This document shows positions 1,871-61,678 of a stretch of 64,000 nucleotides of DNA, piece after piece (the first letter of the stretch is position 1; the number at the start of each line of letters is the position of its first letter). This DNA is from Octopus sinensis. Its lineage: Eukaryota. Below the pieces are notes generated by a model. That model searched no databases and was not told the origin of the DNA. It worked only from the letters and a program-made list of their open reading frames with translations. The stretch is taken from contig NC_043008.1 of NCBI RefSeq assembly GCF_006345805.1, positions 6,634,001 through 6,698,000 of the forward strand, written 5' to 3'. Position numbers and translations under genes: made by a program.

Positions 1871-2006
1871 TAATGCACATTATCACACATGTTAATCCTC
1901 GAAATAAATATTATTACATTAAGTGTTAAAAACCGAAAGACGCATACTGCTTGCAAGCTGAGGATTGGCTTATCTTTAATATTTAATTTGGAGAATAAGG
2001 CAATTA

Positions 2007-2650
2007 GCTGCCAGAGACATTAGTATGCCGGGCAAAATGCTTAGTGGTATTTCGTCTGTCTTTATGTTCTGAGTTCAAATTCTGCTGAGGTCGACTTTAC
2101 CTTTCATTCTTTTGGGGGGTATAAATAAATTAAGTACCAGTTGTGTATTGGGGCCGATCTAATTGACTGGCCCCTTTCTCCCAAAATTTCGGGCATTGTG
2201 CCTAGAGTAGAAAAGATCAATTTAGGGCAGCAAGCTGGCAGAATCGTCAGCACACTGGGCAAAATGATTAGCAGTATTTCGTCTTTCTTTACATTCTGAG
2301 TTCAAATTCCACCAAGGTCGACTTTGCTTTTCATCCTTTTGGGGTCGATAAAATAAGTACCAGTTATGCGCTGGGGTTGATGTGACATGTTCTGAGTTTA
2401 AATTTCACCAAGGTCAACTTTGCCTTTCATCCTTTTGGGGGTCGATAAAATAAGTACCAGTTATGCACTGGGGTCGAAGTGATATGTTCTGAGTTCAAAA
2501 TCCCACCAAGGTCGACTTTGCCTTTCATCCTTTTGCCGTCGATAAAATAAGTACCAGTTACACACTGGGGTCGATGTGATCAACTTAATACTTTTGTCTG
2601 TCTTTGTTTGTCCCCTCTATGTTTAGCCCCCTGTGGGCAATAAAGAAATA
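2007..2650 (+). mobile_element. SINE family A cluster (two copies, second with triplicated central domain)
   Basis: GAGCTGGCAGAA head, GAGTTCAAATTCC B box, central GGTCGACTTTGCCTTTCATCCTTT(C/T)GGGGTCGATAAA...AAGTACCAG repeated. Confidence 0.85.
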
Positions 2651-6415: not shown

Positions 6416-6755
6416 GAACACAGAAAGAAACAAGGAGAGAAAATAAAGAATGTATAGTGACTAGCAGTGTGTATGTATGTATATATATGCATGTATATAT
6501 ATATATATAAAATTAATTAAGGGTAGAAATTGATATTTATCAATTAAGACCAGTGGTCTAGCATATTAAAAAAGAATCCGAAGATTAAAATGTTTATATA
6601 TACCAATTAAGGACTGAACACGAAAAGTGGACAGTCAACATGCTAGATATAGACGTCAAATCGCCATTCACCACAAAAGATTATGTTCTCAGATCAAACT
6701 CAACACAAAACCATAACAATAAACAAGTGAAAAATATACGAAATAAAATAATTAC

Positions 6756-6820
6756 CCATGTACTAAATTAGTTTCAGCTGTTATTTTCCGCAAGGAAAAC
6801 TGCAGCCATCATCAGCATGG
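6756..6820 (-). ncRNA. Type I hammerhead ribozyme (left arm)
   Basis: Exact reverse complement of 6989-7053. Confidence 0.75.
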
Positions 6821-6988
6821 TCCGTTAACTGCTGCTAATTATTAGCTGCAGTCTAGTATTCTCGGGTTCCAACGCGCCAAAGTAAAGGCATTTGAAAGAT
6901 ATATTCAAATGTAATAGGCTGAACTCCATGCACGCGATATTTCGGTATCGTGTTTGCATCTAGTCCAGCAAATTACATTTATAACGGA

Positions 6989-7053
6989 CCATGCTGATGA
7001 TGGCTGCAGTTTTCCTTGCGGAAAATAACAGCTGAAACTAATTTAGTACATGG
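6989..7053 (+). ncRNA. Type I hammerhead ribozyme (right arm)
   Basis: Stem I CCATG/CATGG; core CTGATGA (6994-7000); stem II GGCTG..TTTTCC-TTGC-GGAAAA..CAGCT; GAAA (7034-7037); stem III ACTA-ATT-TAGT; GUA cleavage triplet ending at 7048. Confidence 0.8.
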
Positions 7054-7204
7054 GTAATTATTTTATTTCGTATATTTTTCACTTGTTTATTGCTATGGTT
7101 TTGTGTTGAGTTTGATCTGAGAACATAATCTTTTGTGGTGAATGGCGATTTGACGTCTATATCTAGCATGTTGACTGTCCACTTTTCGTGTTCAGTCCTT
7201 AATT

Positions 7205-7249
<45 letters not shown>

Positions 7250-9930: not shown

Positions 9931-10164
9931 CTGTTGTTGGTGATGTCATTGAAAATGACAATTGTGATAACTGACAATAATAATAATGATGAAGTTAATA
10001 TATAAAAAAATCAATGTTAAAAGTTAGAGGGACAAAAATCACAATAAATATCAACTTTTATATAATATTGTTTTGTAATTGGAGTTGTTAAAAGAAAATA
10101 TTCATTATCAAAAGAACTTTGGTAAATTACAAAGCTAGAAGCCTAGCAGTATTCTTTCTTCTAA

Positions 10165-10695
10165 AGGCGGTGAGCTGACAGAAATGTTAGCATGCCAGGC
10201 AAAATGTTTAGTGGTATTTCATCTGTCTTTACATTCTGAGTTCAAATTCCACTGATGTCGACTTTGCCTTACGTCCTTTTGGGGGTCAATAAATTAAGTA
10301 CCAGTTGTGTACTGGAGGTCGATCTAATCAACTGGCCCCCTCCCCCAAAATTTCAGGCTTTGTGCCTAGAGTAGGAAAGAATATTTGAAAAACCAAAAAA
10401 GGGAGTGAGCTGGCAGAAACACTAGCATGTTGGGCAAAATGATTAGTGGTATTTTATCTGTCTACCAGCGAGCTGGTAGAAACGTTAGCACGCCGGGCGA
10501 GATTCGTAGCCGTATTTCGTCTGTCGTTACGTTCCGAGTTCTAATTCCGCCGAGGTCGACTTTGCCTTTCATCCTTTCGGGGTCGATAAATTAAGTACCA
10601 GTTACGCACTGGGGTCGATGTAGTCGACTTAATTAATCCCTTTGTCTGTCCTTGTTTGTCCCCTCTGTGTTTAGCCCCTTGTGGGTAGTAAAGAA

Positions 10696-10726
<31 letters not shown>

Positions 10727-11115
10727 AAAGGCGGCGAGCTGGCAGAAACGTTAGCACGCCGGGCGAAATGCTTAGCGGTATTTCGTCTGCGTTACGTTGT
10801 GAGTTCAAAATCCGCCGAGGTCGACTTTGCCTTTCATCCTTTCGGGGTCGATAAATTAAGTACCAGTTACGCACTGGGGTCGATGTAATCGACTTAATAC
10901 CTATGTCTGTCCTTGTTTGTCCCCTCTGTGTTTAGCCCCTTGTGGGTAATAAAGAAATAGGTATTTTATCTGTCTTTACATTCTGAGTTCAAATTTCACC
11001 AAGGTCGACTTTGCCTTTAATCGATAAATTAAGTACCAGTTGTGTACTGGAGTCGATCTAATCGACTGACCCCGCTCCCCCAAAATTTCAGGCCTTGTGG
11101 TTAGAGTAGAAAAGA
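10165..11115 (+). mobile_element. SINE family A cluster with nested self-insertion
   Basis: Copies at ~10165-10382, 10402-10463 plus 10960-11115 (interrupted), 10468-10697 and 10729-10959; duplicated GGTATTTTATCTGTCT at 10448-10463 and 10960-10975. Confidence 0.85.
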
Positions 11116-12121
11116 AAAGAATATTCACTCTGCTAACCCCTGGATGTTACATTATGAAAACAATAAGTAAATAAAGGTAAATAACAAGAATATTGCGCTT
11201 CAAAACAAAAAAAAAAGAAAGTCTTTAGCATTTCAAAACAACATTTAGAATGGAAGAAAGTGCTTGGAACCTAAACAATAATAATTTCTCTCTTAAATAA
11301 TAGCCACACTAATCAGCACCAACACACACGAACATTGCCACGTCACATCCATAATTTAATCAAAAAAGTATTTAATTTCAAGTAGGTTGTATGATACATA
11401 GTGCTAAATAATTGCAGGCCTAATGAAATTTACCAGTCAAACGAGGAATCCAATTTGCTGTGTCATACTGCAGCAAGATTACAGAGATGTTGTTATTTAA
11501 CTGAGTTTGGTGATGTGGAAGCTGTTTGAGACTGACACCGCTAAAGTAGGGGAAACTAATGGAGTGAATTATAAGGTGGTTATATTCAAGAATTTCAAGC
11601 ACACAAACGTCATACTCTTACAAATTAAGACAGTTTCAAAGACATGAAGATAAAAACTAAATATACTGAAGCAAACATCTCATATTTTGGAGTATCTCCT
11701 ATATTTTTACATGAAAAAAAAAAGTAACTGAGATGAGCAACTGGGCCATTTCCACAAAGAAATATAATATAAACAGTTATTTGTATTGCGGAATGGTACA
11801 AATTTTATACAATTTAAATATCAATCAGAACTGGCTGCTAATAAAATGCAAATAATAGAAATCTGATATTATAAATATATATATTGATTTAGCATTGTCA
11901 AAATATATCAAACTGAGGTCCCTCTAAGCTATGAGAAACAAACATTTATTTGAATATCTTAATTCTACTTTTCTGCCTGTCTTCTCTCCCACCCTACTCT
12001 CTCTCTCTCTCGCTCTCTTCCCTATGAGTGTATGTGCGTGTGATATATATATATATATATGTATAAACACACACACACATACACACACACACACACACAG
12101 ATATATATATAAGCATATGGA

Positions 12122-12352
12122 AGGTGGCAAGCTGGCAGAAACGTTAGCACGCTGGGCGAAATGTTTAGTGGTATTTCGTCTGTCATTATGTTCTGAGTTC
12201 AAATTCCGTGGAGGTCGACTTTGCCTTTCATCCTTTCAGTGTCGATAAATTAAGTACCAGTTATGCTCTGGGGTCGATGTAATCGACTTAATCTCTTTGT
12301 CTGTCCTTGTTTGTCCCCTCTATGTTTAGCCCCTTGTGGGCAATAAAGAAAT
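12122..12352 (+). mobile_element. SINE family A
   Basis: Full head, body and tail ending AATAAAGAAATA. Confidence 0.85.
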
Positions 12353-12484
12353 AATATATATGTATAAGCATATGGATATGTGTGTGTGTATGTGTACATG
12401 CACATACTTAGAGAGAGATACTAACAAGTACAGTGAGACAGAAAGATAGAGAGACAACACGACAGGCAGCTGGACAGTAAGACA

Positions 12485-15592: not shown

Positions 15593-16696
15593 ATATATGG
15601 AAGGATAGATGGAAGAATGGAGAGAGGGATAGGTACCAAGGAAATGTATTGCATTCTCCCAATGTCTGTGCTCAATTTTCAACCCTTTCTGTCACCAAAC
15701 CCTTATAAGAATCTGACCTAAAATTTACAGTCAGTAACCGTACGATGTATATGGAAGTTACTAGTATAAATCTGTATAGCTGTGTGTGTGAAGACAGAGA
15801 GAGAGAGAGAGAGAGAAAGGAAGTGGTAGTAGTTGTGGTGGTAGTGGTTGTGATGGTGTTGGTAGTGGTCCAAATAGACACTAGACTTGGCTGGAACACT
15901 TAGCAAGACAAGAGAAGAACCTGAATAAGACAATTGCTCCGATAATTTTGCTTTCCCAAGAGAGTCGTGATTTAAAGACAAAGAGATGTTCCATGACTAA
16001 AACTCTTCTACTAAATCTGAAGGAAACGGTGATTGGTAACGTCTACAAACACAGCACTTTAAGACAAATGATAAGACAGAGAAAACAAATTTGGAAGAAA
16101 TGTAAAGAAAAATGGTTTGAAAGTTGGGGGGAAAAAAAACAAAAATAAAACCAACATTATCTAAGAATAGAAATAAAAAAATAAAGAAAAATATTAAACA
16201 GATAACTGGTTTCCAATATCCCAGCTGGGAAATCTCCTGCCCCTTTTCTCTATCCAACATATTGCAAGTAACGAACGACATTGTTGTAGCCTAGAATTGC
16301 TGACTAAAGGGATTAATGGACATTGTTCAGTGTTTTAGAAGTCATAGAAAATGAAACAATATTATTGTTTTCCTTTGTTGTAAGTCTCCTATAAAAGATA
16401 TCACAAGAAGTCTCTGTTCCATTCACAGTGAGAAGAATAGTTATACAATACAGCAACAGACCAGTATACTAGTTAACCAGTTACCAGTGAGCTGGTAGAT
16501 CAGTACACTAGCACGCTAGTGGACAAATGCGTTTTTTTTTGTTTTTGTTTTTTTATATATCTCCTACACTTTAATAGAGCAGCAAAATTATGTATAACAA
16601 AATGAGGCCCAGGTGGTTGTAAATCTCAACAGCTAACACTAGGTTACAGTTTCAAACTCTGATATTACTACTACTTCAATATATTATATGACCTCA

Positions 16697-16967
16697 AGGT
16701 GGTGAGCTGGCAGAAATGTTAGCACATCGGGTGAAATGCCTAGCGGTATTTCGTCTGCCGCTACGTTCTGAGTTCAAATTCTGCTGAGGTCGACTTTGCC
16801 TTTCATCCTTTCGGGGTCGATAAATTAAGTACCAGTTACGCACTGGGGTTGATATAATCGACATCTGTGGTATGGAGAGAGAGGAGACTGGTATGCATTG
16901 GCAACCGCTGGTCTTCCATAAACAATCTTACCTGGACTTCTGCTTTGGAGGGTAACTTTCTAGGTGC
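16697..16967 (+). mobile_element. SINE A 5' part fused to SINE E 3' part
   Basis: A sequence to ~16862, then E body (GGTCTTCCATAAACAA...GGGTAACTTTCTAGGTGC). Confidence 0.7.
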
Positions 16968-17689: not shown

Positions 17690-18272
17690 GTATTCTTGTA
17701 TTCTTGTATTCTTATATTCTTTCACTTGTTTCAGTCATTTGCCTGTAGCCATGCTGGAGCACTGCCTTGAAGGGTTTTAGGCTGAGAAATCAACCCCAGG
17801 ACTTATTCTTTGTAAGCCTAATACATATTCTATCGATCTCTTTTGTTGAACCACCAAGTCATGGGAACATAAACACATCAATACCAGTTGTCAAGTGATG
17901 GTGGGGGGGGGCAGACACAATGACATACACTCATAGATATATACATTCATACATACATACATTTATATATGCATATATATATATATATATTGACTGGCCT
18001 CCTCCCCAAAAATTGTGGGTCTTGTGCCTAGAGTAGAAAAGTTTATGAATGTTGTAAAGGTGGTGAGCTGGCAGAAACGTTAGCATGCTGGACGAAATGC
18101 ATAGTGGTATTTCGTCTGTCTTTACATTCTGAGTTCAAATTCCACCAAAGTTGACTTTGACTTTCATCCTTTTGGGGTCAATAAATTAAATACCAGTTGC
18201 GTACTGGGGTCAATCAAATCGACTGGCTCCTTCCCCCAAAATATCAAGCCTTGTGCCTAGATTAGAAAAGAT
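17690..18272. mobile_element. SINE B fragment (minus, ~17690-17930) and SINE A (plus, ~18057-18272)
   Basis: Family motifs as above. Confidence 0.7.
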
Positions 18273-19259
18273 TATATATCAGCAAGCTATGAGCTGTTTA
18301 TCTTAATACCCAATCGACACAGTTATTCTTTCCACCCCAACAATTCCACTTCTATGTTTGAGCAGGTAGAAATATTTAATTTGTCATATTTTATTTAGAT
18401 ACACTTCACGAAACATAACTTCCAGTTAATTAACATCTTAATAGCAGAAAAATATGGGTTATGCATGACTGAATATGTTAAAAATAAAAAAATCATCTTG
18501 TTTATTTTTTTTTTTTAGATTTTAAGTTTCTTTATTTATTTGTTCGTGTATGATACAAATAAAGAAGGCATTTGTAGTCGAATTATGGGGGAATTGGTAA
18601 TAATGGTTGTGGTGGTGATGATATTATTAATATTGGTAAAAGGTGCTGGGATGGTGGCGCTAATAATGATAGAGGTAAAAGTAATGTTGTTGCTGTGAGT
18701 CATCAAAATAATGATTATGATAATGATGATAGTAGTAGTAGTGTTAGTAATAATGATATTAAACATAGTTCAGCTGATGGTAATAATAGAAGACAGCATT
18801 GGTAATAATACTAATAATGATTATAATGATAATAATGATGATGATGATGATGATGCTGATGGTGATGCTGACGCTGATGTTGATGATGATGATATTGGTA
18901 TCGTTATTGATTGGCAGCAACAGTGGTAGTGAAATTATGAAATTATTAAGCAGAATAATAATCAAAATTAAATAGCAAGAAAGAAAGGATAGTCGCAAAC
19001 AAAGGTGAATGTGTATTGAAATATATCGATCAGAGTGTACAAAAGAGGAGAATAGGTTGTTTTACATTTAGAAAGACTAAGATGTATACTAAGGTACTAA
19101 GGTACTGAGGTACTATGGTTTTGGGGGTAGATGCAGCTAAATTTTACCTCTAAATATTTGGAATAAGTATATAAATGTGTGTGTGTGTGGTGGTGGGTGG
19201 GTACAGAAGGTGGCCAAATGATGGGATCATTAGAACATCAGAAAGATCCTCCTCCTCTT

Positions 19260-19462: not shown

Positions 19463-19992
19463 CCCTTTAACATCTGTCTTCCATGCTTGAATGTGTTGAA
19501 TTGTTTGACAGGAACTGGCTTGTCAGACGACTGCCCCCCCCCCAGCTCCCCTTCCTAACATCATATATATATATATTCATATATATTCATATATACATAT
19601 AGGTGCAGGTGTGGTAGTGTGGTAAGCAGCTTGCTTACCAACCACATGGTTCTGAGTTCAATTCCGTATATATGATGGACTCTCCTCTTGAGGACAACAC
19701 ATGAGTGCTCAGCTTTTGCCGAATGATCTGCCCAAAGGATTTGTTTTTAATGACCAAATGCTTCTTCCCCTCATTAGCTCTCTCTCCATCATATCAACGT
19801 TGTCTGAAGAGATTCATAAGTGTACAACCATACATGAATGAGCGTCCAATAATACTATACTTGTTCCACATCCTCGCGTTGTTGTGTTTTCTCTTTGTGT
19901 TTTCATGTTTAAAAATACATGCAGGAAGGATAGGAAAATATTAGATTTTTAAGCCTTAAAAATTCACTCCATAATTGTCCATGGGAATATAT

Positions 19993-20224
19993 ATTTCTTT
20001 ATTGCCCACAAGGGGCTAGACATAGAGGGGACAAACAACAACAGACAAAGGGATTAAGTCAATAACATCGACCCCACTGCGTAACTGGTACTTTATTTAT
20101 CGACCCCGAAAGGATGAAAGGCAAAGTCAACCTCGGTGGAATTTGAACTCACAACGTAACGACAGACGAAATACAGCAACGCATTTCGCCCGGCGTGCTA
20201 ACGTTTCTCCCAGCTCACTGCCTT
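19993..20224 (-). mobile_element. SINE family A
   Basis: Reverse complement of 10729-10959. Confidence 0.85.
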
Positions 20225-20295
20225 AGTGGTTAAGTGCACGGGCTACTAACCCCAAGATTCCAAGTTTGATTCTAGGCAGTGACCTGAATAATGAT

Positions 20296-27627: not shown

Positions 27628-28406
27628 TTCTCTAGGCATAAGGCCCGAAATTTTTGGGGTGGAGTCCAGTCGATTAGATCGACTTCAGTACGCTACTGGT
27701 ACTTAATTTATCGACCCCCGAAAGGATGAAAGGCAAAGTCGACCTCGGCGGAATTTGAACTCAGAACTTAAAGACATACGAAATACCGCTTAGCATTTTG
27801 CCCGACGTGCTAACGTTTCTGCCAGCTTGCCGCCTTAAAATAATCTTTTCTACTTTTTGAGAAGGGGACCAGTCGATTAGATCGACTCCAGTACGCTATT
27901 GGTACACTATTGATCAACTCTGAAAGGATGAAAGGCAAAATCGACCTCAGCGGAATTTGAACTCAGAACGTAACACCAGAGGAAATACCTATTTCTTTAC
28001 TACCCACAAGGGGCTCAACACAGAGGGGACAAACAAGGACAGACAAATGGACCAAGTCGATTATATCGATCCCAGTGCGTAACTGGTACTTATTTAATCG
28101 GCCCGGAAAGGATGAAAGGCAAAGTTGACCTCGACGGAATTTGAACTCAGAACATAAAGACAGACGAAATACCTATTTCTTTACTACCCACAAGGGGCTA
28201 AACACAGAGGGGACAAACAAGGACAGACAAACGGATTGAGTCGATTACATTGACCCCAGTGCGTAACTGGCACTTATTTAATCGACCCCGAAAGGTTGAA
28301 AGGCAAATTCGACCTCAGCGGAATTTGAACTCAGAACGTGACGGCAGACGAAATACAGCTAAGCATTCTACCCGGCACATTAACGTTTCTGCCAGCTTGC
28401 TGCCTT
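27628..28406 (-). mobile_element. Array of four SINE A copies
   Basis: Four repeats of AAGGATGAAAGGCAAAGTCGACCTC; identical junction GAAATACC|TATTTCTT at 27989/27990 and 28173/28174. Confidence 0.85.
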
Positions 28407-29354
28407 ACTAGATACAGGTATTGATACACGTGTATGTACGTGTGCGTATGTATGGAACGTGCATTTGCCTTCATGTGAATGTAGTTTCATATACTTAGAC
28501 ACACATGCAAATACAGAATAAACAATTTGACTATGCAAAAAGCCATTCTTTATGAAATTGTATGATAGGAATTGGATAACATTATTAGCTGGAAAATAGA
28601 GAAAATAGATACACGACCTAATTTATGGTAGACTTAATTAGAAAAGAAAATTGGAATAAGATAATGAAAAATGCTGTCTCTCCTTAAACATATGCAAAAT
28701 GCTTTAATATAATAATGATGGTAGTGATGGTGGTGATGATGGTGATGGTGGTAGTGACAATGATGTGTATGATATTGAAGGTGATGTTGATATTGTTGGT
28801 GATGGTGGTGATTGAAATGATGAAGAAAACTACACACACACACACACACATACACACACATATATATATATATGGACACTTATATATACTGTTGTATTCT
28901 TAGGTATGTGTCTTATGATGCCGAAGGTAAAAATAGAAATTAATCTGTGTTTGTTTTCCTAAAGGCGTCCAGAAAATCCTCACCAAGTCGCTAAAATCAT
29001 TCAAGCAGTCTTTATCTTGTTGAGTTTCTGGATCCTGTGTTATTGCAATACCATAAACATAATTTCCAAAAATAACCATTTAAAATTTCTCAGTCAAGCT
29101 GTATTTTCTTCCCATCAGAAAACATGTATGTATATTCACGTATACACATGCACACACGTATGTATGTTCTCGTTCTCTCTTTAATTTAAAAGGAACTTTG
29201 ACCGACCACCTGCTTGCTTGGTTGCAAAGTTGTTCTCTGTTATAACTGGAAAACTCTGATGTTATAAACATATACATATGCATACATAAACACATACTTA
29301 TATTCGTATACACATCCATCCATCTGTCCACCCGTCCATACATGCATACATACA

Positions 29355-34684: not shown

Positions 34685-34949
34685 CTCTAAGTGAAGCCTA
34701 TATCACCATGGATACACATCACATCTCTAAGTGATGTCTGCATCACCATAGACACATGGCATTTAAGTCCCTCTAAAAGATGCTTGTACCACCATAGGCA
34801 CCCATCACCTAAGTCCTGCCAATTGATATCTGTATCACCATGGACAAGCATAATTTGAGTTCTGCTAAGTGAGGTCTGCATCACCATGGATACATAGAAT
34901 TTTAGTCCCTATAAGAGATGCTTATATCACTATGGGTATATCACTTTAT

Positions 34950-35170
34950 TGCCCACAAGGGGCTAAACATAGAGGGGACAAACAAGGACAGACAAACGGG
35001 TTAAGTCTATTACATCGACCCCAGTGCTTAACTGGTACTTAATTTATCGACCCCGAAAGGATGAAAGGCAAAGTCGACCTCGGCGGAAGTTGAACTCAGA
35101 ACGTAATGGTAGACGAAATACGGCTACGCATGTCGCCCGGCGCGCTAACGCTTCTGCCAGCTCGCCGCCT
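34950..35170 (-). mobile_element. SINE family A inserted in the minisatellite
   Basis: CpG-rich young copy; flanks TATGGG(CA)TATATCACTTTA duplicated. Confidence 0.85.
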
Positions 35171-35813
35171 TATGGGCATATATCACTTTAGTCTTGCTAA
35201 GTAAGATCTGTATCACTATAGATACACATTATTTGAGTTCTGCTAAGTGAGGAATGTATCACCATGGAAACACATCATTTAAGTCCTGCTAATTGAAATC
35301 TGTATCACCATAGATACATAGCATTTTAGTTCCTCTAAGAGATGCTTATATCCCCACGGTTACTCCTCACTTTAGTCACCTTCTGCTAAGTGAGGTCTCG
35401 ATCACTACATCATTGCAACCAACCATTGGCAGTCTAGTTCAGCCGTATGCTGAATAATGTAAAATTCTGTACCTAATGCAATTTCCAAAAGTTCTTGTAT
35501 TTAGAAAACTTCATTAAATCAAGAAATAAATTAATAATGCATAACTCTGCAATGACCACGTAGTTGAAATATATTCAGAGACTATAACTGTAAGTGTTCT
35601 TTCCATACATTTAATTACGTATATAAATAAACTTATTTTAACTTGTATGAAAATACAAGTCGACTGACTAAATATGAGTTGATACACAAATGTTCTATAC
35701 ACGTATGCTGTTCAGTTTTGACATCAATAGAATAAAACTCAAAAGTGGGATGAAGATGACAGTATAGAAAATAGGTGTATTCCAGGGAAAATTGTGAAGT
35801 TATGTGAGCATAA

Positions 35814-42157: not shown

Positions 42158-42344
42158 AGGCAGTGGCCCGGCAACAAAATTTTCTTGTGGGGTGCAAACT
42201 CAGTTCCAAAATTTGGCACTACTGTAGAAGTGTGGATCCGAGTTTTGGGAGTGTGCATGTCACAAATTTGCGCATGCGAGCGCGTTAGTCGTAAGTAGAG
42301 AAAATTGGTGAAGAAAGAACAATTAGGAAGAAAGAAGAGAATAT

Positions 42345-42645
42345 ATTTCTTTACTACCCACAAGGGGCTAAACACAGAGGGGACAAACAAAGACAGACAA
42401 AGGGATTAAGTCGATTACATCGACCCCAGTGCGTAATTGGTACTTATTTAATCGACCCCGAAAGGATGAAAGGCAAAGTCAACCTCTGAGTTCAAATTCC
42501 GCCGAGGTCGTCTTTGTTTTTCATCCTTTCGGGGTCAATTAAATAAGTACCAGTTATGCACTGGAATCGATATAATCGACTTAATACCTATGTCTGTCCT
42601 TGTTTGTCCTCTCTGTGTTTAGCCCCTTTTGGGTAGTAAAGAAAT
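42345..42645. mobile_element. Two 5'-truncated SINE A copies in inverted orientation
   Basis: Minus copy to ~42487, plus copy from ~42485. Confidence 0.75.
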
Positions 42646-42971
42646 ATATTCTTAGGAAGCTTTGTATTTATTCTATCGCCTCTTCTTCCGAACCGCCAAG
42701 TTACAGAGGCATAATCGCATCAACATTAGTTATCAAGCGATGGTGGGGTGTGACATACAGACACACAAATACATACATTCGTATGTATTTGTGTTCTTGC
42801 ATATGTACCTACCTCTCTCTCTGTCTCTCTGATCGGTCGTGTTATTCTTTGTTACGCAATGAAAGATTGTTTTTGTGCTGAAAATTGTGAAATGTTGCTG
42901 TTTTGGTCGTCGAGACCACATCTCTTCTGCTGTTGTTTCCCCCTTATTTCAAGGGGGAAGCGGCGAAAAAC

Positions 42972-61108: not shown

Positions 61109-61242
61109 GTATCTATAAATGTGTGTGTGTATAAAGACAGACAGACAGATAGATAGTTAGGTAGATTGATGGATGGATGGATGGATTGATGGATGGGTGG
61201 ATAGAAACAGATAAGCTACTGTGTGTAAAATTTAAATGTACA

Positions 61243-61678
61243 AAGGTGGTGAGCTGGCAGAAACATTAGCACACCGGGTGAAATGCTTAGCGGTATTTCA
61301 TCTGCCGCTACGTTCTGAGTTCAAATTCCGCCGAGGTTGACTTTGCCTTTCATCCTTTCGAGGTCGATAATTTAAGTACCACTTGCATACTGGGGTCGAT
61401 CTAATTGACTGGCCCCCTCCCCTTGCGCCAAAAGGAGAAAAGAATATTTCTTTAATTATAAGGCTGTGAGCTGGCAGAAACGTTAGCACACCAGGTGAAA
61501 TGCTTTGCGGTATTATGTCTGTCTTTACGATCTAAGTTCAAATTCTACCGAGGTTGACTTTGCCTCTCATCCTTTCGGGATTGATAAATTAAGTACCAGT
61601 TGTGTACTGGGGTCGATCTAACCAACTGGCCCCTTCCCCCAAAATTTCAGGCCTTGTGTCCTAGAGTAGAAAAGAATA
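61243..61678 (+). mobile_element. Two tandem SINE A copies (alternative tail)
   Basis: Heads at ~61243 and ~61461; tail CTGGCCCC...CCTAGAGTAGAAAAGAAT. Confidence 0.85.

What the first reader, a model, noticed from the sequence alone, without database searches (positions are those of the whole stretch)
6595..7214. Very young 233-bp inverted repeat with a complete type I hammerhead in each arm
Seen: arms 6595-6827 and 6982-7214 differ at about one base. Each holds a full HHR: 5-bp stem I CCATG/CATGG, CTGATGA, an extended stem II capped by TTTTCC-TTGC-GGAAAA, GAAA, a 4-bp stem III with a 3-nt loop, and a GUA site (cut after 7048). The 154-bp spacer has its own hairpins (CATTTGAA/TTCAAATG; CGCGATA/TATCGTG) and no ORF. 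The sequence is unrelated to family G. Established: PLE insertions often carry an inverted, 5'-truncated pLTR copy. Inference: a recent non-autonomous PLE/retrozyme insertion. Transcription from either strand would give a self-cleaving RNA and a long dsRNA hairpin, a potential ADAR or siRNA substrate. The first stem II pair is G-U rather than G-C, which may lower activity.
Basis: partly seen in the sequence, partly recalled or inferred. Interest (0 to 1): 0.75.

Follow-up and report, generated by a model that had tools for sequence, protein, structure and literature searches.

The report
Head-to-head insertion of a hammerhead retrozyme
The inverted repeat is one young, back-to-back insertion of a 507-base protein-free jumping repeat that carries a predicted self-cutting RNA, and its two arms stop at two different fixed points, which likely records a Penelope-type enzyme copying the RNA from both strands of a cut TA repeat.

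Summary
The inverted repeat and both hammerhead motifs are real, but the element is 6504-7214, not 6595-7214. It is one insertion of a 507-nt, ORF-less, tandemly repeated unit (non-LTR retrozyme type; 287 exact core matches genome-wide; 0.6% mean divergence). The 'spacer' is the upstream part of the right arm, and the left arm carries a 91-nt extra tail. Copies end in (TA)n at one of two fixed sites, E1 or E2. In head-to-head insertions one arm ends at E1 and the other at E2 in 73 of 74 pairs with both ends at such sites (7 more have an end elsewhere). Junctions vary, and both arms often share rare alleles (39 of 56 sites, 7% by permutation). An autonomous Hydra-type Penelope element in the genome follows the same rule (8 of 8) but shares no DNA similarity. 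Best reading: Penelope-type double priming on one RNA, then joining of the two cDNAs. Cleavage, circles, expression and the mobilising family are not shown. This copy has one hammerhead per strand, so is likely a dead end. Retrozymes, inverted copies and a one-sided tail are published, and this scan already noted the same rule for other families in this genome.

The parts
6504..7214 (.). Whole head-to-head insertion of the 507-nt retrozyme-type unit (unit position 1 = base after the predicted cut, window 7049)
   Evidence: L001 = window
6504..6827 (-). Left arm, 324 nt, unit positions 441 through the cut site to 257; 3' end at site E2 (exact end ambiguous within TATATA 6504-6509)
6504..6594 (-).
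6756..6820 (-). Type I hammerhead motif, predicted cut between 6761 and 6760
   Evidence: mirror of 6989-7053
6825..6827 (.). Junction of the two arms, 3-nt overlap (TTA) that fits both arms
6825..7214 (+). Right arm, 390 nt, unit positions 284 through the cut site to 166; 3' end at site E1 (ambiguous within TATATATA 7207-7214)
6828..6981 (+). The 'spacer': unit positions 287-440, the upstream part of the right arm, with its own hairpins
6989..7053 (+). Type I hammerhead motif with bulged U at 7001, G-U first stem II pair, predicted cut after 7048
6494..6503 (.). Left (TA)n target flank
7215..7248 (.). Right (TA)n target flank

Best explanation
This is one young head-to-head insertion of a 507-nt non-coding tandem repeat with a predicted hammerhead ribozyme (a non-LTR retrozyme), likely made when a Penelope-type RT/endonuclease cut both strands of a (TA)n tract and likely primed two cDNAs on the same multi-unit or circular RNA, one at site E1 and one 91 nt downstream at site E2. 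Shown: the unit, its tandem arrays, the (TA)n target, the two fixed 3' ends, variable 5' ends, the one-of-each pairing, short junction overlaps and allele sharing between arms. Inferred: arrays are transcribed; the hammerheads cut the multimer into units that can circularise; a PLE protein, probably as a dimer and most plausibly of the Hydra or Neptune type, starts one cDNA at each site; both cDNAs stop at random points and are joined through 0-3 nt overlaps or short fillers, giving two arms whose 3' ends point outward with the tail on one side only. This copy has one hammerhead per strand, so it could not release a unit-length RNA and is likely a dead end. About 0.9 for retrozyme moved by PLE machinery; about 0.6 for two primings on one RNA molecule.
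For: Family: 287 exact matches of a 25-nt core, 0 for the control; about 506-nt spacing, up to 17 units in a row; 527 differences from the majority in 86,747 aligned bases, 0.6%; the window copy differs from the majority at 4 sites. Ends: young subfamily 42 pairs E1/E2, none with equal ends, 1 with an end elsewhere (one search gives 40; two more are completed by L222 and L060); sister subfamily, about 92% identical, 31 E1/E2, 1 E2/E2, 6 with an end elsewhere. 73 of 74 against at most 50% under independent choice: P about 4e-21. Second check from end patterns alone: among the first 100 listed E1 ends and first 100 E2 ends (of 683 and 290), 0 E1/E1, 0 E2/E2, and 18 E1/E2 pairs in the range both lists cover (partly the same loci). 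One template: arms share the minor allele at 39 of 56 sites, permutation mean 7%, 0 of 5000 as high. Junction overlap of 1-3 nt in 20 of 39 pairs. Ribozyme under selection: core invariant in 11 hand-picked copies from three subfamilies, stem I keeps pairing with two doubly changed pairs. Circular unit folds at z -6.9, 67% paired, 33% GC. A young autonomous PLE with Hydra motifs (DKT, CxCX5C, CxxC/E, N/CxH) has a hammerhead in its pLTR, inserts in (TA)n and shows one-of-each ends in 8 of 8 resolved inverted copies among 20 loci. PMC11167929 (parts 1-2 of 4 read): a PLE protein cuts and extends both strands, starts at two sites that define the tail, and is predicted to be a dimer.
Against: No autonomous element with DNA similarity to the unit was found in 91 PLE-bearing loci, so the partner is not identified. 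Of 22 informative insertions, 12 were fully concordant between arms, 4 partly and 6 fully discordant: two templates, mixed templates or assembly errors occur. Allele sharing could also come from one source locus active in a cell, or from gene conversion. PMC11167929 saw no difference in start site between strands (a bulk result) and start sites not homologous to the target, whereas here both sites sit at the only two TATATA runs of the unit; the older subfamily lacks a clean TATATA at E1, so pairing-based priming is weakly supported. 5' ends are not enriched at the cut site (16 of 185, P 0.18), so nothing here shows cleavage in vivo. No contig bridging this locus's own junction appeared in the rows shown for four runs (103 rows hidden).
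Confidence: 0.7

Rival explanations
1. Same retrozyme and same PLE enzyme, but the two arms come from two separate RNA molecules, one held by each subunit, with the E1/E2 asymmetry set by the protein complex or by the staggered cut.
For: 6 of 22 informative insertions have fully discordant arms; arm lengths are not clearly correlated (Spearman 0.28, P 0.08) and have equal medians, 515 and 523 nt.
Against: Minor alleles are shared at 39 of 56 sites against 7% by permutation; this needs one dominant source RNA per cell.
Confidence: 0.18
2. The inverted arm is a fold-back (self-primed) copy of the first cDNA, as proposed for rotifer Penelope elements.
For: PMC3846280 (passages) infers self-priming from palindromes at inverted junctions; it would explain shared alleles; L129 (E2/E2, 53-nt arm) looks like this.
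Against: In this locus each arm holds sequence the other lacks (unit 284-440 and 167-257). In 12 of 39 pairs neither arm can lie inside the other, and 5' ends lie within 40 nt of each other in only 3 of 39 (6.2 expected by chance).
Confidence: 0.06
3. A MITE-like DNA transposon with 233-bp terminal inverted repeats and TA target duplication.
For: Near-perfect inverted arms flanked by TA.
Against: Arm lengths run from 64 to 3055 nt, junctions differ at every locus, the two ends are unequal, and many copies are tandem arrays or single arms.
Confidence: 0.02
4. An assembly fold-back artefact.
For: The locus's own junction was not seen bridged in the listed contigs; two fetched loci (L058, L063) contain the same insertion twice.
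Against: The inversion stops exactly at the element's two known ends, flanks are not mirrored, the tail is on one arm, and contigs of four runs from four studies each hold head-to-head joints of this family at other positions (table 5).
Confidence: 0.04

Closest known systems
Metazoan non-LTR retrozymes (Cervera and de la Pena 2020, PMC7229834; Li, Clavereau and Pollet 2026, bioRxiv 10.64898/2026.07.22.740005)
   Same: Short, ORF-less, low-GC tandem unit with one type I hammerhead per unit, dimers to long multimers, dispersed copies, highly self-paired predicted circle.
   Different: 507 nt is above the 170-400 nt circles of the 2020 paper but inside the 51-972 bp range of the 2026 preprint. 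'Inverted' occurs 0 times in the main text of the 2020 paper. Stem III is 4 bp and the first stem II pair is G-U. Cleavage and circles are not shown here.
Inverted pLTR plus one-sided tail of Penelope-like elements (PMC8557442, PMC3846280)
   Same: [quoted passage not shown]
   Different: Tail is 91 nt rather than 30-40; no ORF; the one-sidedness is near absolute (73 of 74), and either end is used alone in single-arm copies (young subfamily 11 E1, 5 E2).
Two-site internal initiation by the anole Poseidon protein PAc (PMC11167929)
   Same: Two fixed start sites whose interval is the tail; both target strands cut and extended; AT-rich target.
   Different: There the start sites are in an AC-rich loop unlike the target and no strand bias was seen; here the sites are 91 nt apart, TA-rich, and strictly paired one per arm.
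Hydra-clade PLE of the same genome (P0001; L224-L238)
   Same: Hammerhead in the repeat, (TA)n target, two fixed ends, one-of-each in 8 of 8 inverted copies.
   Different: 960-aa ORF, tail about 180 nt, no DNA similarity to the unit.
LINE-1 twin priming (recalled, no paper read on it)
   Same: Two primings at the two target strands give an inversion joined by microhomology.
   Different: In L1 the second primer site varies and the two parts do not overlap; here both sites are fixed and the arms overlap over hundreds of bases.

Membership tests
Non-LTR retrozyme | Head-to-tail tandem unit of a few hundred bp with a type I hammerhead in each unit | tested here: met
   507-nt unit, arrays up to 17 units; met by the family, this copy is under one unit per strand
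Non-LTR retrozyme | No protein-coding capacity | tested here: met
   longest ATG ORF 44 aa, longest stop-free stretch 60 aa
Non-LTR retrozyme | Dispersed multi-copy family, GC under 45%, self-paired circle predicted | tested here: met
   287 exact core matches on many contigs; GC 33%; z -6.9 against 60 shuffles
Non-LTR retrozyme | Self-cleavage and circular RNA in vivo | not testable with these tools
   only contigs were served; one run guessed to be RNA holds a 203-nt contig through spacer and hammerhead, not proof
Type I hammerhead ribozyme | Core CUGANGA, GAAA, UH with three stems | tested here: met
   core invariant in 11 of 11 aligned copies; stem I covaries
Type I hammerhead ribozyme | G10.1-C11.1 pair | tested here: not met
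   G-U in this subfamily; G-C in part of the sister subfamily. PMC4209133 calls the pair highly conserved
Type I hammerhead ribozyme | Match to an Rfam hammerhead model at gathering score | tested here: not met
   0 matches in the window; the evalue mode was not run
PLE-type insertion | Fixed 3' ends with optional tail, variable 5' truncation, inverted 5' copy, microsatellite target | tested here: met
PLE-type insertion | Shared pLTR sequence with an autonomous RT + GIY-YIG element | tested here: inconclusive
   none in 91 PLE-bearing loci, a small sample of 5029 and 8773 candidates
PLE-type insertion | Target-site duplication | not testable with these tools
   both ends lie in (TA)n and no empty site was recovered
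MITE | Copies of uniform length with equal terminal inverted repeats | tested here: not met

The most novel reading that the evidence does not exclude
Penelope-type insertion is an obligatorily asymmetric double priming: one RT dimer on one RNA (possibly a rolling circle) starts one cDNA at E1 and the other at E2, so the long-unexplained inverted-copy-plus-one-sided-tail structure is the direct footprint of the reaction. This ORF-less 507-nt unit would be a minimal natural substrate with hundreds of recorded products to test that against.
Probability: 0.55. Interest if true: 0.65.

Novelty: new member of a known kind. Interest (0 to 1): 0.4.

Why it matters
How PLEs make tandem and inverted insertions with a tail is stated as open in PMC8557442 and PMC11167929 (passages read). 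A young family gives a strict, countable rule (73 of 74) and evidence that both arms usually come from one template, which narrows the models and suggests a direct in vitro test with a short RNA. As a single locus it is ordinary: one of hundreds of copies, likely unable to make a unit-length RNA. The long hairpins such insertions create could feed editing or small-RNA pathways, but nothing here shows that.

Tried and rejected
Rfam at gathering score: no match. Autonomous partner: GIY-YIG family search and a search with a neighbouring PLE fragment gave Neptune-like and Hydra-like elements; blastn and an nhmmer profile of the unit's 3' half over 91 such loci found only retrozyme insertions lying beside them. 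The L131 ORF is a neighbour, not part of the element. A more diverged query found an older sister family, 65-75% identical, with no PLE ORF attached in 30 loci apart from the one used as query source. Enrichment of 5' ends at the cut site: none. No RNA holder on record was listed; runs guessed to be RNA gave one contig in X9 and none in X17, no evidence either way. Presence/absence: no empty-site joint was listed and rows at repeats are dropped; unresolved. Literature: five searches found no paper on this family or a count of end pairing; the 2005-2006 reviews cited for the tail and all supplements were not seen and may hold it. The terms 'octopus' and 'cephalopod' in those searches were my guess from the repeat style and were not tested. 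Look-up of earlier notes by sequence found nothing. Structure and complex prediction were not used.

Full report
Observation. The arms 6595-6827 and 6982-7214 are reverse complements with one mismatch and have no other copy in the window. Each holds a type I hammerhead motif as described, with one unpaired U after CUGAUGA and a G-U first pair of stem II. Rfam gave no match at gathering score. The local minimum-energy fold keeps stems I and II but mispairs the core; the hammerhead fold is 2.6 kcal/mol less stable.

What it belongs to. A search of the window's genome (G000, 2.7 Gb) with spacer plus right arm returned near-identical copies on many contigs, many 506 nt apart (40 of 1447 candidates scored). 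A 25-nt core pattern has 287 exact matches and its control none. The repeat unit is 507 nt, 33% GC, without an ORF, and folds as a circle at z -6.9. With position 1 set after the predicted cut, the window's left arm is unit 441 to 257 on the minus strand (6827 to 6504) and the right arm is unit 284 to 166 on the plus strand (6825 to 7214), overlapping by 3 nt. So the spacer is part of the right arm and the left arm has a 91-nt tail. Sampled copies differ from the majority at 0.6% of bases, assembly errors included, and this copy at four sites. A sister subfamily about 92% identical (528 motif matches) and an older one 65-75% identical share the layout. Across the three, in 11 copies I picked, the core is invariant and stem I has two pairs changed on both sides (related sequences inflate that test, and stems II and III were not aligned well enough to count).

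The end rule. Nearly all arms end in (TA)n at unit 166 (E1) or 257 (E2), the only two TATATA runs in the unit. I counted each insertion once, dropped overlapping fetches of the same place, and counted the doubled insertions in L058 and L063 once. Young subfamily: 42 head-to-head pairs E1/E2, none with equal ends, one with an end elsewhere; single-arm copies 11 E1 and 5 E2. Sister subfamily: 31 E1/E2, one E2/E2 (L129), six with an end elsewhere. That is 73 of 74 classifiable pairs, P about 4e-21 against a 50% ceiling. Loci were chosen by best match or list order, not by their ends. Patterns for the two ends alone (683 and 290 matches; first 100 of each listed) gave 0 E1/E1, 0 E2/E2 and 18 E1/E2 pairs. 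In 39 simple young pairs the arms have equal median length, overlap by 1-3 nt in 20, and in 12 neither arm can lie inside the other, which excludes a MITE and argues against a fold-back copy. Where both arms cover a variable site, they share the minor allele at 39 of 56 sites against 7% by permutation, but 6 of 22 informative insertions are fully discordant. 5' ends are not enriched at the cut site.

Likely enzyme. The genome holds many GIY-YIG PLEs. A young family with a 960-aa ORF has the DKT, CxCX5C, CxxC and CxH motifs given for the Hydra clade, with RWR in place of RWK. It carries a hammerhead in its repeat, ends in (TA)n at two sites about 180 nt apart, and shows one of each in 8 of 8 resolved inverted copies among 20 loci. 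A two-ORF Neptune-like family (RVT_1 and GIY-YIG) also ends in TA; its second end was not examined. Neither shares DNA with the unit, so the partner is not named.

Reads. Only contigs were served. Four runs from four studies each contain head-to-head joints of this family at other positions, so the architecture is not an assembly product. This locus's own junction was not bridged in the rows shown. At 6858 the window's rare allele appears at low depth only in X2 of four runs, a weak hint that the insertion or the allele is not fixed; X2 may be the assembly's source and two runs were read in part. Expression is untested.

Mechanism. Shown: unit, arrays, target, two ends, pairing, junctions, allele sharing. 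Inferred: transcription of arrays, self-cleavage and circularisation, cutting of both target strands by a PLE protein, one cDNA started at each site on one RNA, random stops, and joining. For this copy, a read-through transcript would fold at -471 kcal/mol and likely trap the ribozyme, and one hammerhead per strand cannot release a unit.

Comparison with print. Read: PMC11167929 parts 1-2 of 4; bioRxiv 10.64898/2026.07.22.740005 parts 1-2 of 5; passages of PMC3846280, PMC7229834 and PMC4209133; passages and section 11 of PMC8557442; no supplements. These establish retrozymes as non-autonomous PLE derivatives, the inverted copy, a tail often on one end, two start sites and cutting of both strands. 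Five searches found no count of end pairing and no description of this family. L1 twin priming is recalled, not read.

Earlier notes of this scan. I recorded the end rule before the look-up. One search shows eight unchecked notes on hammerhead repeats of 352-500 nt elsewhere in this genome, most with the same two-site reading, so the idea is not new to the scan and those notes are not independent support. One pointed to Hydra elements and several to PMC7229834, and I followed both leads. No note matched this sequence.

Verdict. Interest 0.4; the pairing rule would merit 0.65 if the one-RNA double-priming model holds (probability 0.55).

Noticed in passing
   Followed up: no
L224-L238 (G000 C4, C26, C15 and others), protein P0001: Young Hydra-type PLE of about 5.6 kb with a 960-aa ORF, a long 3' region, a hammerhead with a very long stem II and an about 180-nt tail; Pfam finds neither RT nor GIY-YIG in it.
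   Followed up: partly
L213-L221: Young two-ORF PLE (479 aa and 781 aa, RVT_1 and GIY-YIG, CX4CxxC linker) ending in TA, with internal repeats in its 3' region.
   Followed up: partly
L059-L060 (G000:C5 about 61.583-61.593 Mb): A 17-unit array plus inverted arm, all units sharing five minor alleles, with sub-variants recurring in non-adjacent units.
   Followed up: partly
L058 and L063: The same head-to-head insertion appears twice in a row, separated by TA; either a local duplication or an assembly duplication.
   Followed up: no
L129:695-888: The one E2/E2 exception: a 53-nt inverted arm overlapping a 155-nt arm, resembling a fold-back.
   Followed up: partly
L245-L273: Older sister retrozyme family with a minimal stem III and a different stem I and II sequence but the same tail region and ends.
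   Followed up: partly
window 1977-2650, 10144-11022, 12101-12353, 16676-16928, 18037-18289, 19990-20225, 27927-28407, 34937-35172, 42342-42646, 61223-61658: A dispersed SINE-like repeat family of about 230 nt in both orientations.
   Followed up: no
L139, minus strand: A 297-aa open frame that looks like a mariner-type transposase (recalled motif likeness, not scanned).
   Followed up: no
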